Virus record (IMG/VR): IMGVR_UViG_3300025465_000001
Direction: 5' to 3' (one strand)
DNA: 40,045 nt
Source of the DNA: a virus
Each line of letters begins with the position of its first letter. The first letter of the stretch is position 1. A model generated the notes under the pieces. It did not search any database. It was not told the DNA's origin and saw only the letters and a list, made by a program, of their open reading frames with translations. Below, piece by piece: positions 12,651 through 17,259 of the stretch. The translations under genes and the position numbers were made by a program.

Positions 12651-12880
12651 GGATGTAGAGACTAAGCTATCTTATCAATTAAACAATACATACAAGTATC
12701 AACTAGCATTTTATATCCTTATTGGCTGACCAAACCATATAACCATGACAAAACGTTGTTTATCCGCGCTTCTAAACGTAAGTATGTATTGAGTTATTCA
12801 ATATTTGCTAATTATAGTTTAGCTAACTGCGGATTTGTTACGATGATCCGAATTAAATCGGCTGAAAGGAATAGAATTAT

Positions 12881-15165: not shown

Positions 15166-15998
15166 TATCTCTTTTTCCTCAATAACAATACTGCCGCTGA
15201 TGCTTGATCTTCTGTTACGTCTTCGAACTTATCTACCTTTAACCATGGTAAGTATTGAGCAGGGTCTTTATCAATTAATAAATTCTGCAATTCTCTTATT
15301 GGATTTTCAACAAATGGAGTTACATCTTTTTCAGCAACGATACCTTCGCCGTTATCATTTAACATTTGAATAGCTGAGCCAAGCCTTTCACATTTGGGCC
15401 AGTATTTATAAGCACGCTTAACAACTGTTTTACGAATCATTTCACTTTCGTCAGTTTTCCACGGGCCATTGCCTTTTTTGAATGCTTCAGAGCGAGCGCG
15501 AATATCAAATATTTCTTTTATGCTCATTTCTTCAGTTAGGTAATCACCATCAATAGTTTTAACTGTACAATATGCGCCAACTATTTCACCCCTATCTCCG
15601 AACGTATTAGATAAGTGGCTAGGCTCTTTTGATAAACCTTGATTTTGATAAGTGTCATTAGCGCGAACAATCTTGCATTGGCCCCATAATATAACGCCCG
15701 ATGATTGAGCTAGATGAAGCAACCCCATGTAGCTTAAGTCTAAACAGACACCACCTTTACGCGGCACAAGGTAAGCATGCTTTAACGCTGGGTTCAAACT
15801 GATACCAATGCTTGCTATATTTACAATTGCATTCTGTAGGCTTGCTTGGTTCTTCTCAGCTATACCAGCTAAATAGCTATTTGCTTGAATTGCTTGAATA
15901 GCAAATTGCTTTTCTTTTTCCCAAACTACCGACTCATCAGAAAGAACCGGTAAAAATAAACTTTCCTGGCTGCTGATGTACTCAATTAAATTACTCAT
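15165..15998 (-). CDS. recT: RecT-family single-strand annealing protein
   Basis: GISLNPALKHAYLVPR...GPWKTDESEMIRKTVVKRAYKYWP. The track start at 16013 is TTG; the ATG at 15998 has GAGGA 8 nt upstream. Confidence 0.85.
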   Translation of the reverse strand: MSNLIEYISSQESLFLPVLSDESVVWEKEKQFAIQAIQANSYLAGIAEKNQASLQNAIVNIASIGISLNPALKHAYLVPRKGGVCLDLSYMGLLHLAQSSGVILWGQCKIVRANDTYQNQGLSKEPSHLSNTFGDRGEIVGAYCTVKTIDGDYLTEEMSIKEIFDIRARSEAFKKGNGPWKTDESEMIRKTVVKRAYKYWPKCERLGSAIQMLNDNGEGIVAEKDVTPFVENPIRELQNLLIDKDPAQYLPWLKVDKFEDVTEDQASAAVLLLRKKR

Positions 15999-16194
15999 TA
16001 TCTTCATCCTCAATAAATTTCCACTGCGTCATGCTGTGCGACTGTAATTCATTAATCACGTTATCAACCGATGATTCCAACGGGCAAAAGTCTACTAAGT
16101 GATATGAATAGCCGTGACTGAATACGCTTCCTTTTCTACCGATAATAGCCGCTACCTTTTCAGGTGGGTTTGTTTTTAATGTTACAAATTTCAT
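15991..16194 (-). CDS. Hypothetical protein (67 aa), first gene of the recombination operon
   Basis: ATG at 16194 with AAGGAG as SD. The SD abuts the structured leader. Confidence 0.55.
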   Translation of the reverse strand: MKFVTLKTNPPEKVAAIIGRKGSVFSHGYSYHLVDFCPLESSVDNVINELQSHSMTQWKFIEDEDNE

Positions 16195-16209
16195 TTTTAC
16201 ACTCCTTTG

Positions 16210-16325
16210 TAGTCTGTATAGTGAAATGAGCTAGGGTAGGACTCGAACCTACAAATGGATTTTTAATCCAGAGTCTCCGCAGAAGATATTCCTCAACTAC
16301 TAACTCACTTCACTTATACAGACTA
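16210..16325 (-). ncRNA. tRNA-like cloverleaf closed by a ~25-bp helix (5' leader element; not a canonical tRNA)
   Basis: Minus-strand features: a perfect T-arm GTAGG-TTCGAGT-CCTAC, hairpin TGGA-TTAAAAA-TCCA and hairpin GAGG-AATAT-CTTC. These are enclosed by arms 16300-16325 and 16210-16234, which form 25 bp with 2 GU pairs and 1 bulge. Confidence 0.45.
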
Positions 16326-16538
16326 TTAAAATTAGTCTACTTTTCCTTAGCATTTTAGCTGGCGCGGTATGAACGGGGAAAAGTAGTAAAACGCTTAACC
16401 GCTTTGATGTGATTAAATATACGCTAATTAAAAATGATTGCAAGTAAATTCCATACTATTTTTCATATTCTTTTTGGTATTGCTTTTGCGCTAGTTATAG
16501 CTTACTATTCAGTTAACTTAAATAAACAGGTATTAACA

Positions 16539-16694
16539 ATGTCAGACTACACAACTATACAGTTACACAAATTAACACGGGCAAAACTAAAGGAAGTTTC
16601 AGATAAGTATAAAAAGGAATGCAAGTGGCCTAACAAGCAAACTGAAATATTAACCGACTTCATTAATAAACTTCACGCAAAGGAAATTAAATAA
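16539..16694 (+). CDS. Small ribbon-helix-helix-like protein (51 aa)
   Basis: MSDYTTIQLHKLTRAKLKEVSDKY...TEILTDFINKL shows a beta-alpha-alpha pattern. The longer 16434 start adds a hydrophobic N-terminus that overlaps likely promoter sequence. Confidence 0.45.
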   Translation: MSDYTTIQLHKLTRAKLKEVSDKYKKECKWPNKQTEILTDFINKLHAKEIK

Positions 16695-16753
16695 TATGAA
16701 AGCACTACTAGACTTTATCGATTGGCTACTATTTTAATTACTGGAGAAATAAC

Positions 16754-17089
16754 ATGAACGAATTAACAGATTTACAAATATGTAAAAAGATTGCTGAGAT
16801 TGAAGGCTACCACACTAATCTTGCGATTAAATGCGAGGGTGTATGGTGTTCTATGAATGATAATAATTGCTATGGAGTATTCAACCCACTAACAGACGAT
16901 GCGCTTTGTTTTCAATTAATGGTCAAGTATGATTGCGACCTAATATCACCATATCGACCAAACAAAGACACTCACTGGGAGTGTCAGATATTCACAAGTG
17001 ATTGTGCAGACGTGGTAAGTATTTATAATGATTCACCTAACAAAGCAATCTGTCTTGCAATAATAGAAGCACATAAGGATCAATCATGA
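16754..17089 (+). CDS. Hypothetical protein, DUF2591-like (from recollection of the motif pattern)
   Basis: 111 aa. GGAG as SD. LTDLQICKKIAEIEGY...NPLTDDALCFQLM...NKAICLAIIEA. Confidence 0.6.
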   Translation: MNELTDLQICKKIAEIEGYHTNLAIKCEGVWCSMNDNNCYGVFNPLTDDALCFQLMVKYDCDLISPYRPNKDTHWECQIFTSDCADVVSIYNDSPNKAICLAIIEAHKDQS

Positions 17090-17259
17090 AGGGAATTAAC
17101 GAAAAACTCAACAACCAGGTAAAGCGCGAATGTTTGCTTAAATCTGCAATAACAAGTGTAAAAAAGCAAAAGGAAGATGAGCGACCTATTAACCGTAGAC
17201 GTATAGAAGATATACTGGAGGCTAAACAAATTGAAAAAAGCTTGCAGTTGGATTGTTGA
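17086..17259 (+). CDS. Small basic protein (57 aa, not in the track)
   Basis: ATGA overlap with the upstream stop. Followed by an intrinsic terminator. Confidence 0.45.
   Translation: MKGINEKLNNQVKRECLLKSAITSVKKQKEDERPINRRRIEDILEAKQIEKSLQLDC

What the first reader, a model, noticed from the sequence alone, without database searches (positions are those of the whole stretch)
16210..16325. tRNA-like cloverleaf on a ~25-bp helix, abutting the SD of the recombination operon
- Helix: on the minus strand the arms TAGTCTGTATAAGTGAAGTGAGTTAG (16325-16300) and CTAGCTCATTTCACTATACAGACTA (16234-16210) form about 25 bp with 2 GU pairs and 1 bulged A.
- Interior: the enclosed 65 nt fold into three hairpins. 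One is a textbook T-arm (GTAGG-TTCGAGT-CCTAC). One is an anticodon-like arm with a 7-nt loop (TGGA-TTAAAAA-TCCA).
- Not a standard tRNA: there is no proper D-arm, about 10 extra nt lie between the arms, and the anticodon-equivalent would read AAA.
- Position: the helix ends 1 nt from the AAGGAG SD of the first gene (16194) of the RecT/Exo/SSB operon.
- Possible roles: a two-turn dsRNA helix is a classical RNase III substrate, as in the lambda N leader and the T7 R sites. A tRNA-like fold could also recruit RNase P or tRNA-modifying enzymes.
Basis: partly seen in the sequence, partly recalled or inferred. Interest (0 to 1): 0.62.

Follow-up and report, generated by a model that had tools for sequence, protein, structure and literature searches.

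The report
Helix-framed tRNA-like phage RNA cassette
The flagged stretch is one member of an undescribed family of small folded RNAs in uncultured marine phages, in which a nearly constant 25-base-pair stem encloses an exchangeable, usually tRNA-like insert at the head of the early genes; its function is unknown.

Summary
On the minus strand, 16325-16300 and 16234-16210 form a 25-bp helix (2 G-U pairs, 1 bulged A) around 65 nt. These 65 nt contain a canonical T-arm and an anticodon-like arm with loop UUAAAAA. It is not a normal tRNA: ARAGORN finds none and Rfam's tRNA model gives 21 bits against a 29-bit threshold.

New result: the helix is a conserved frame. I found it in 30 further viral or metagenome contigs and in no Rfam family, GenBank phage or GTDB genome. 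It encloses about 23 unrelated inserts of 55-132 nt. Many inserts carry T-loop and D-loop motifs. One relative passes Rfam's tRNA threshold.

- Helix pairing co-varies: 13 of 25 pairs change on both sides.
- Mismatches are G-U rather than A-C, which points to RNA on this strand.
- The insert is swapped as a cassette between identical arms.
- Complete genomes carry one copy (one carries two).
- In three phages a genuine tRNA gene lies 17-23 nt upstream.

Best reading (about 45%): a stable tRNA-mimic RNA cut from the early-operon leader through a processing stem, by RNase III and possibly RNase P. No expression data could be obtained. Earlier notes of this scan appear to describe the surrounding non-coding RNA arrays, but not this frame.

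The parts
16416..16443 (-). Predicted sigma-70 promoter (TTGCAA-16-TATATT) of the leader; transcription start inferred near 16409
   Evidence: Consensus scan. The same 30-nt promoter block is conserved in L010, L012, L033 and L082. Not shown experimentally.
16335..16400 (-). 5' leader module: hairpin ACTACTTTTCC/GGAAAAGTAG interlocked with GCGGT/ACCGC (possible H-type pseudoknot). A separate, swappable module upstream of the framed element.
   Evidence: Read. Stem 2 differs entirely in sequence but still pairs in L004 (GCTGGTTTACC/GGTAAACCAGC). L012 and L082 carry another module type in the same place. Pseudoknot inferred, not tested.
16300..16325 (-). 5' arm of the frame helix. Outer 18 nt form the extension (bulged A at 16314). 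Inner 7 nt GAGTTAG (16306-16300) form the acceptor-like 5' strand, with U-1 at 16307 and G+1 at 16306.
   Evidence: Covariation in 20 distinct frames.
16271..16299 (-). UA (positions 8 and 9 of a tRNA) followed by an atypical, enlarged D-region. Either a 7-8 bp hairpin with a triloop plus a GGAGACUC linker, or a 3-bp D-stem with a 21-nt loop.
   Evidence: Infernal alignment; constrained fold. Inconclusive: the only sequence variant (L012) does not change here.
16256..16270 (-). Anticodon-like arm, loop UUAAAAA (U33, AAA at 34-36, A37)
   Evidence: Compensatory A:U to G:C change in L012/L033 (TGGGTTAAAAACCCA). Absent from most other family members.
16236..16252 (-). T-arm GTAGG-TTCGAGT-CCTAC (canonical T-loop, G53:C61)
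   Evidence: In 11 distinct family T-arms, 100% of cells pair and 5 of 5 pairs show changes on both sides.
16210..16235 (-). Extra C (16235); acceptor-like 3' strand CTAGCTC (16234-16228); A73-equivalent (16227); 3' strand of the extension helix to 16210. No CCA.
16192..16207 (-). AAGGAG Shine-Dalgarno (16207-16202) and ATG (16194-16192) of the 67-aa first gene of the orf67-RecT-Exo-SSB operon
   Evidence: RecT relatives.

Best explanation
The element is a gene for a small stable RNA embedded in the 5' leader of the phage's early (recombination) operon. A tRNA-derived body (acceptor-like stem, D-region, anticodon-like arm, T-arm) is held on an 18-bp extension of its acceptor stem. That extension acts as a processing stem, as the flanking helices of rRNA precursors do.

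Proposed steps, all inferred:
1. Host RNase III cuts the 25-bp helix near its conserved mid-helix defect.
2. This releases the tRNA-like RNA and at the same time creates the 5' end of the orf67-RecT-Exo-SSB mRNA just before its SD.
3. RNase P may trim further at U-1/G+1.
4. The released RNA acts in trans as a tRNA mimic. It presents a tRNA elbow and acceptor helix, and it does not decode.

Shown here:
- The frame is constant while the body is a cassette that phages exchange.
- Selection acts on RNA pairing on this strand.

Why the body varies is open. A decoy or binding role in phage-host conflict is the favoured guess, but it is only a guess.
For: - Helix and fold are real: z = -7.8.
- Across 20 distinct frames, 94.4% of cells pair and 13 of 25 pairs change on both sides. 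0 of 500 shuffles reach this, and slid controls collapse to 27-44% paired.
- Non-Watson-Crick cells inside the helix are G-U 17 times and A-C twice. This fits selection on the transcript of this strand, not on duplex DNA.
- A helix defect (bulged A, U.U or C.A) always sits 12-14 bp from the junction.
- tRNA character: Rfam tRNA 21 bits in the window and 30 bits, above the 29-bit threshold, in relative L064. T-arm covariation is 5 of 5 pairs.
- The most shared insert words are GGTTCGA (8 of 20 classes; GTTCGA in 9) and ATTGGT (6 of 20). Inner stem GAGUUAG/CUAGCUC has U-1, G+1 and A73.
- BLAST of the element against GenBank phages hits only the T-arm regions of real tRNAs.
- Company of real tRNAs: tRNA-His and tRNA-Pro lie 17 nt upstream on the same strand in L069 and L084. 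A tRNA-Trp read by eye lies about 23 nt upstream in L090.
- Cassette behaviour: window against L010 has arms 100% and flanks 87-94% identical, insert 41%. Window against L012 has insert 97% and flanks 63-74%.
- One copy per complete genome, two in one.
- Downstream genes are almost always co-oriented. A predicted promoter lies about 85 nt upstream.
Against:
- RNase III and RNase P cleavage are inferred from shape only.
- There is no CCA, and a fully paired leader-trailer helix is a poor RNase P substrate unless it is opened first.
- Nine or so insert classes have no recognisable tRNA feature, so 'tRNA mimic' cannot be the whole story for the family.
- The inner 10 bp of most frames were fixed by my search patterns. 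Their apparent invariance is partly ascertainment. An outer-arm-anchored scan found only one further variant (L088), besides L004.
- The D-region of the window copy is atypical and unresolved.
- No partner protein was identified.
Confidence: 0.45

Rival explanations
1. The element acts purely in cis. It is a structured leader that sets the stability, 5' end or translation of the downstream mRNA, or modifies RNA polymerase as the put RNAs do. No released RNA has a function of its own.
For: - It lies between a predicted promoter and the SD, 2 nt from AAGGAG in the window.
- About a dozen relatives likewise have an SD within 25 nt.
- It heads long early operons, which often need antitermination.
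Against: - Many members are followed by 150-400 nt of further non-coding modules, not by an SD.
- The insert is highly structured, under compensatory selection and exchanged as a unit. A mere stem would not need this.
- There is no U-tract or alternative pairing with the SD. The upstream AGACTA that could compete with the helix in the window is not conserved.
Confidence: 0.2
2. It is a Y-RNA-like scaffold. The conserved stem binds a host protein (Ro60/Rsr or another helix-binding protein). The variable tRNA-like module tethers a second factor, as in Deinococcus Yrn1, where the terminal stem continues into the acceptor position.
For: - The architecture matches: paired 5' and 3' ends, a conserved stem with a defect, a variable tRNA-like module, an occasional tandem pair (L003).
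- PMC4201824 describes bacterial and phage Y RNAs with tRNA-like domains, and Yrn1 has D, anticodon-like and T order.
Against: - No TROVE/Ro60 gene in five complete genomes that carry the element, nor among the three large (about 500-aa) ORFs of the window that I scanned.
- No Rfam Y-RNA hit.
- The bacterial motif GNCGAAN0-1G is absent from the window stem and only approximated (AGCGAAG) in three relatives.
- Host Ro60 could not be examined.
Confidence: 0.1
3. It is a working, if odd, tRNA precursor (anticodon AAA, or a derivative of tRNA-Leu(UAA)). After trimming and CCA addition it is aminoacylated and used in translation or by an aminoacyl-tRNA-dependent enzyme.
For: - 7-nt loop with U33 and A37, G1:C72, A73, canonical T-arm.
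- A relative passes the tRNA threshold.
- T4 tRNAs also lack an encoded CCA (own knowledge).
- From my recollection of E. coli tRNA-Leu(UAA), not checked with a tool here, the arm GGAUUAAAAAUCC differs by one base from GGAUUUAAAAUCC.
Against: - ARAGORN negative and 21 bits, below the 29-bit threshold.
- Aberrant D-region, 3-nt variable region, first anticodon-stem pair C.U.
- Phages with the same frame and flanks replace the anticodon arm with a 90-nt domain or with non-tRNA inserts, so decoding is not the conserved function.
Confidence: 0.07
4. It is a DNA-level element: a miniature inverted-repeat transposable element, or a recombination cassette whose inverted repeats are protein-binding sites.
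For: - 25-bp terminal inverted repeats with conserved sequence around a variable cargo.
- Cassette exchange between phages.
- Both arms would co-vary if one protein bound both.
Against: - Single copy per genome.
- Constant position and orientation relative to downstream genes.
- Mismatches are strand-specific G-U, 17 against 2 A-C.
- Inserts carry T-loops with compensatory stems.
- None in 185,579 representative genomes with the T-arm pattern.
Confidence: 0.05
5. It is an RNA immunity factor of the P1 c4 / P4 CI type. It is processed from the leader by RNase P and pairs with target sites in the same operon.
For: - Leader position, tRNA-like acceptor helix and hypervariable body would all fit immunity specificities.
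- An earlier scan note (e1-2912086) proposed this for what appears, by shared short words, to be a related array.
Against: - No complementarity between insert and 1.5 kb downstream or 400 nt upstream beyond shuffled controls in any of 26 elements.
- No Rfam C4 hit.
- No 3' CCA.
Confidence: 0.05

Closest known systems
Phage 'stable RNAs' co-transcribed with tRNAs (T4 rnaC/rnaD, i.e. species 1 and 2 RNAs; T5 RNAI and RNAIII)
   Same: Small, structured, non-decoding RNAs of unknown function encoded beside phage tRNA genes and presumably matured by the tRNA-processing machinery. Here genuine tRNAs lie 17-23 nt upstream in three relatives. Earlier scan notes report an 18-bp closing stem for T5 RNAIII.
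   Different: No sequence or Rfam relation. This family has a nearly invariant 25-bp frame with exchangeable inserts. In the window it sits in an mRNA leader, not in a tRNA cluster. The comparison with T4 and T5 rests on my own knowledge and on unchecked scan notes.
Bacterial Y RNAs (D. radiodurans Yrn1; YrlA/YrlB), PMC4201824
   Same: Terminal stem formed by the 5' and 3' ends, a variable tRNA-like module with T- and D-arm features, sometimes two in tandem. Some are RNase P substrates. Yrn1 has the same arm order, with the stem at the acceptor position.
   Different: No Ro60/TROVE gene nearby or anywhere in five complete genomes. No Ro-binding motif. No Rfam hit. The insert is swapped between phages.
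RNase III processing stems of rRNA precursors, and the T7 and lambda N-leader RNase III sites
   Same: A helix of two or more turns, formed by sequences that flank a stable RNA or lie in an early leader, with a defect near mid-helix.
   Different: Cleavage is not shown here. The T7 and lambda sites carry no cargo. rRNA stems are not conserved as a portable frame.
tRNA-like processing modules (mascRNA of MALAT1, gammaherpesvirus TMERs, mitochondrial tRNA punctuation)
   Same: A tRNA-shaped fold inside a longer transcript that recruits tRNA-end-processing enzymes and so defines the ends of neighbouring RNAs.
   Different: Those are eukaryotic systems. They have free acceptor ends without an 18-bp extension. 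This is an analogy of mechanism only.
P1/P7 c4 and P4 CI immunity RNAs
   Same: Small RNAs cut from the leader of the operon they precede, with a tRNA-like acceptor helix used by RNase P.
   Different: No CCA, no Rfam C4 match, and no target complementarity above chance.

Membership tests
tRNA (Rfam RF00005) | Detected by tRNA finders at their thresholds | tested here: not met
   ARAGORN: none. Infernal: 21 bits against gathering score 29. Relative L064 reaches 30 bits, but ARAGORN does not call it.
tRNA (Rfam RF00005) | 7-bp acceptor stem with free 5' end, discriminator base and 3' CCA (encoded or added) | tested here: not met
   The 7 bp GAGUUAG/CUAGCUC plus A73 are present, but the helix runs on for 18 bp and no CCA is encoded. 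Post-processing CCA addition is not testable here.
tRNA (Rfam RF00005) | T-arm: 5-bp stem, 7-nt loop UUCRANY, G53:C61 | tested here: met
   GTAGG-TTCGAGT-CCTAC at 16252-16236. Covariation in 11 relatives.
tRNA (Rfam RF00005) | Anticodon arm: 5-bp stem, 7-nt loop with U33 and purine 37 | tested here: inconclusive
   Loop UUAAAAA fits. The first stem pair is C.U. There is one compensatory change in L012. The arm is absent from most family members.
tRNA (Rfam RF00005) | D-arm: 3-4 bp stem, loop with G18 G19 | tested here: inconclusive
   The window has 27 nt with alternative folds. Long-form relatives have GCAGA-UAAAGGUUAUU-UCUGC, and L073 has GCGC-AUUGGUA-GCGC.
Bacterial Y RNA (YrlA/Yrn1) | Encoded next to, and bound by, Ro60/Rsr (TROVE domain) | tested here: not met
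   No TROVE match in five complete genomes with the element. The control genomes do match. None among the three large window ORFs scanned. Binding is not testable here.
Bacterial Y RNA (YrlA/Yrn1) | Conserved Ro-binding stem motif (GNCGAAN0-1G in the 5' strand, PMC4201824) | tested here: not met
   The window 5' strand is UAAGUGAAGUGAG. Only L003, L064 and L076 have AGCGAAG.
Bacterial Y RNA (YrlA/Yrn1) | Terminal stem plus tRNA-like effector module | tested here: met
tmRNA | tRNA-like domain with a G3:U70 acceptor and CCA, a tag reading frame and pseudoknots; found by ARAGORN | tested here: not met
   ARAGORN finds no tmRNA in the window or the loci. G3:C70. No CCA.
C4 / CI antisense immunity RNA (Rfam RF01695) | Loops complementary to target sites in the same operon; 3' CCA for RNase P | tested here: not met
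   Longest complementary runs are 7-10 nt, the same as shuffled inserts. No Rfam hit.
RNase III substrate | About 20 bp or more of near-continuous dsRNA | tested here: met
   25 bp with one bulge. Conserved in the family.
RNase III substrate | Cleavage by RNase III in vivo or in vitro | not testable with these tools
MITE-type inverted-repeat DNA element | Many dispersed copies per genome; mismatches without strand bias | tested here: not met
   One copy in four complete genomes, two adjacent copies in one. G-U 17 against A-C 2.

The most novel reading that the evidence does not exclude
Marine phages carry a dedicated RNA 'expression slot': a constant processing stem into which diverse structured RNAs (tRNA mimics and others) are swapped by recombination. 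It would be the RNA counterpart of a gene-cassette system. The inserts would be rapidly exchanged decoys or inhibitors aimed at different host tRNA-targeting or RNA-sensing defence proteins, expressed as the very first product of the early operon.
Probability: 0.15. Interest if true: 0.85.

Novelty: new variant of a known kind. Interest (0 to 1): 0.66.

Why it matters
- Phage-encoded non-coding RNAs are poorly catalogued. This family is absent from Rfam 15, from 50,697 GenBank phage records and from 185,579 representative prokaryote genomes.
- It shows textbook covariation and an unusual organisation: a nearly invariant stem with a hypervariable, horizontally exchanged, mostly tRNA-like body, in single copy at the head of early operons.
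- If the RNAs are released tRNA mimics, they add a viral branch to the small set of bacterial tRNA mimics (tmRNA, Y RNAs, skipping-rope RNA).
- The natural 'stem plus insert' design resembles the tRNA scaffolds used to express recombinant RNAs.
- The rapid turnover of inserts hints at a role in phage-host conflict that is directly testable with insert swaps.

Tried and rejected
- Ordinary tRNA or tmRNA: ARAGORN negative.
- Any Rfam family: none at gathering thresholds. Relaxed searches gave only the sub-threshold tRNA hit and noise.
- Homologues in GenBank phages: none for the window region or for the L003 and L004 versions. At E <= 10 only T-arms of real tRNAs appear. From the larger array, only a far-downstream module is shared with Vibrio breoganii and Pseudoalteromonas phages.
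- Host or prophage copies: the T-arm plus acceptor pattern hit only unrelated sequences in GTDB genomes.
- RecT-linked element: four of eight RecT-related loci lack it, and in one genome it lies away from recT.
- Partner protein: no gene cluster accompanies all elements. The weak KH hit of orf67 (E = 0.005, below threshold) is not conserved in its L071 homologue. No PHROG match.
- Ro60: absent.
- Antisense targets in cis: none above chance.
- Alternative pairing of the 5' arm with the upstream AGACTA: not conserved.
- Phage attachment site copying a host tRNA 3' half: rejected. T-stems co-vary between phages while the acceptor stays constant, and no integrase lies beside it.
- No whole genome is held for this window.

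Full report
**1. What is in the window**

On the minus strand, 16325-16300 pairs with 16234-16210 to give 25 bp, with two G-U pairs and one bulged A at 16314. The 126-nt stretch folds at -49.4 kcal/mol. That is z = -7.8 against dinucleotide shuffles, and none of 200 shuffles is as stable.

The 65 enclosed nucleotides contain:
- UA directly after the helix;
- a 27-nt atypical D-region;
- an arm with loop UUAAAAA (16270-16256);
- a 3-nt linker;
- a canonical T-arm, GTAGG-TTCGAGT-CCTAC (16252-16236).

ARAGORN finds no tRNA or tmRNA. Rfam finds nothing at gathering thresholds. With relaxed thresholds the tRNA model aligns end to end at 16305-16228 with 21 bits (threshold 29, E = 0.06). It takes the inner seven pairs GAGUUAG/CUAGCUC as acceptor stem, A16227 as discriminator and AAA at the anticodon position.

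The cloverleaf-type fold costs only 1 kcal/mol more than the minimum-energy fold, which breaks the T-arm.

A predicted promoter, TTGCAA-16-TATATT, lies at 16443-16416. AAGGAG starts 2 nt after the helix. The ATG of a 67-aa ORF follows at 16194, then RecT, a YqaJ-type exonuclease and SSB.

**2. The helix is the frame of a family**

No genome is held for this window. RecT relatives in IMG/VR showed the same helix in L003 and L004, but around a 130-nt interior. L003 has a second, 108-nt copy without a T-arm directly after the first.

Pattern scans then found many more:
- The T-arm plus acceptor pattern found L010 and L012 in viral contigs and L033 and L041 in metagenomes. In GTDB genomes it hit only unrelated sequences, no family member.
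- The two inner arm halves separated by 36-159 nt found some 25 further viral contigs.
- A scan anchored only on the outer arms found one more, L088.

After chance hits were removed (L074, L085-L087, L089), the element is present in 31 contigs including the window. There are about 23 unrelated interiors of 55-132 nt.

Nothing similar exists in GenBank phages or in Rfam.

**3. Evidence that it is an RNA under selection**

On 20 distinct frames, with the single bulged base removed so that the columns correspond:
- 94.4% of cells pair;
- 13 of 25 pairs show changes on both sides;
- 0 of 500 shuffles reach the observed values;
- sliding the partner by 1-3 columns drops pairing to 27-44%.

One caveat applies. 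The inner 10 bp were fixed by my patterns in most sequences, so their invariance is partly ascertainment. The two frames found independently of those bases (L004, L088) carry compensatory changes there.

Inside the helix the non-Watson-Crick cells are G-U 17 times and A-C twice, beyond the two invariant G-U pairs. That bias fits the transcript of this strand and does not fit a symmetric DNA site.

Every frame type keeps a defect 12-14 bp from the junction: a bulged A, a U.U or a C.A.

**4. tRNA character of the family**

- In 11 distinct T-arms that abut the 3' strand, all cells pair and all five pairs show compensatory changes. The loop stays UUCGAnU-like.
- The words most shared between unrelated interiors are GGTTCGA (8 of 20 classes at that stage; GTTCGA in 9) and ATTGGT, a D-loop word (6 of 20).
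- L073 and L080 have a textbook D-arm (GCGC-AUUGGUA-GCGC) and two T-arms. L072 has a D-arm and a T-arm but no anticodon arm.
- L064 scores 30 bits on the tRNA model, above threshold.
- The window's anticodon-like stem has one compensatory change in L012 and L033.
- About nine interior classes show no tRNA feature.
- The long form (L010, L041, L003A, L004) replaces the anticodon arm with a bulged stem of about 9 bp. That stem has compensatory changes and a strictly conserved internal loop, AGUUGAAR / GGAUAUGUKGAA.

**5. Cassette behaviour and context**

- Window against L010: arms 100% identical, flanks 87-94%, interior 41% (unrelated).
- Window against L012: interior 97%, flanks 63-74%.
- L012 against L082: flanks 90-92%, interior 51%.

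The interior is therefore exchanged between the arms.

Complete genomes carry one copy; one carries two adjacent copies. Downstream genes are almost always on the same strand. In about half of the loci the upstream genes diverge, which marks the start of an early operon. Downstream genes are often recombination modules (RecT/exonuclease or another annealing protein), but no protein family accompanies all elements.

In many loci the element is one slot of a longer non-coding array:
1. a module that ends in a U-run;
2. a 7-bp-framed RNA (GUGUCUG...CAGACAC);
3. a linker CCCUUUCAAAGCUUCU;
4. this element;
5. further conserved modules.

In L069 and L084 the preceding slot is a genuine tRNA (His, Pro), 17 nt upstream. 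In L090 it is a tRNA-Trp, read by eye, about 23 nt upstream.

**6. Mechanism**

Three features make up the anatomy:
- a stable RNA body flanked by a two-turn helix with a central defect;
- a tRNA-type acceptor with U-1/G+1 and A73;
- the company of real tRNAs.

This anatomy points to maturation by the host's stable-RNA machinery. I propose that RNase III cuts the stem and that RNase P and 3' trimming possibly follow. This would release a non-decoding tRNA mimic. In the window it would also create the 5' end of the recombination-operon mRNA next to its SD. All of this is inference.

The turnover of interiors suggests a trans-acting role under diversifying selection. A decoy for tRNA-binding or RNA-sensing host factors is a hypothesis only.

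**7. Alternatives tested**

- Y RNA. The architecture fits, especially Deinococcus Yrn1 (PMC4201824). However, there is no Ro60 gene in five complete genomes, and none among the three large ORFs of the window that I scanned. There is also no Ro-binding motif.
- c4/CI-type immunity RNA. There is no cis complementarity above chance.
- Functional tRNA. Phages with the same frame dispense with the anticodon arm.
- DNA transposon. The element is single-copy with strand-biased mismatches.
- Pure cis-regulator. This is not excluded. It does not explain the conserved, exchangeable, structured interiors, nor the members that are not followed by an SD.

**8. Verdict**

This is an undescribed family of phage RNAs, a new variant among tRNA-like stable RNAs. 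Its function remains to be shown experimentally.

Earlier notes of this scan describe what appear to be the surrounding modular RNA arrays in other marine-phage windows, but not this frame. I tested one of their leads (c4/CI-type targets) and did not find support for it.

Noticed in passing
window 16335-16400 (minus strand); L004 2030-2108; L012/L082 equivalent: The first ~75 nt of the leader form a separate swappable module. A 10-11-bp hairpin, with sequences fully different between phages but always paired, interlocks with a 5-7-bp stem (GCGGT/ACCGC). This is a probable H-type pseudoknot, followed by a conserved A-rich ...AAAAUG(A)CUAAGG tract.
   Followed up: partly
L069 11306-11381 (-), L084 2318-2394 (+), L090 (tRNA-Trp read by eye); L041, L065-L068, L072, L073, L078, L088 upstream of the element: The slot directly 5' of the framed element holds either a genuine tRNA (His, Pro, Trp) or a different RNA closed by a 7-bp stem GUGUCUG/CAGACAC and followed by A-ACC(C)UUUCAAAGC. 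This looks like a second, tRNA-acceptor-like frame with its own variable inserts.
   Followed up: partly
L072 539-639 (+): The slot-1 RNA of L072 resembles Rfam Methylophilales-1 RNA (RF03011) weakly: 27.8 bits against threshold 79.9, E = 0.18. It shares the outer helix and the AUAGAUUAGGC motif. The word GGGGUUUUGCAGAAUA recurs in slot-2 inserts of L071 and L078.
   Followed up: no
L010/L041/L003/L004 long-form interiors (e.g. L010 1466-1545): A strictly conserved internal loop, AGUUGAAR opposite GGAUAUGUKGAA, contains two T-loop-like pentamers (UUGAA, UGGAA). This is reminiscent of the double T-loop motifs that dock tRNA elbows in RNase P and T-box RNAs. It is purely a sequence impression.
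   Followed up: no
window ~12700-12790 (minus strand); L066, L073, L078, L084, L088 downstream of the element: A conserved module, ACGTTTAGA(T/A).GCGGATAAACA...CATGGTTATATGGT.TGG...CCAA.AAGGAT, just before a start codon. It is shared with cultured Vibrio breoganii phages (e.g. MG592502) and Pseudoalteromonas phages BS5 and HS2 at 86-89%.
   Followed up: no
window 15991-16194 (-): The 67-aa first gene has a weak KH-domain hit around IIGRKGS (E = 0.005, below threshold). Its homologue in L071 lacks the GxxG motif. Homologues follow the element directly in L010 and L071, which carry different inserts.
   Followed up: partly
window 16434-17259 (+): Three small plus-strand genes diverge from the leader promoter. 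The first looks like a ribbon-helix-helix regulator with an N-terminal hydrophobic segment. The 111-aa gene recurs near the element in L010, L012, L076 and L080 (cluster 3).
   Followed up: no
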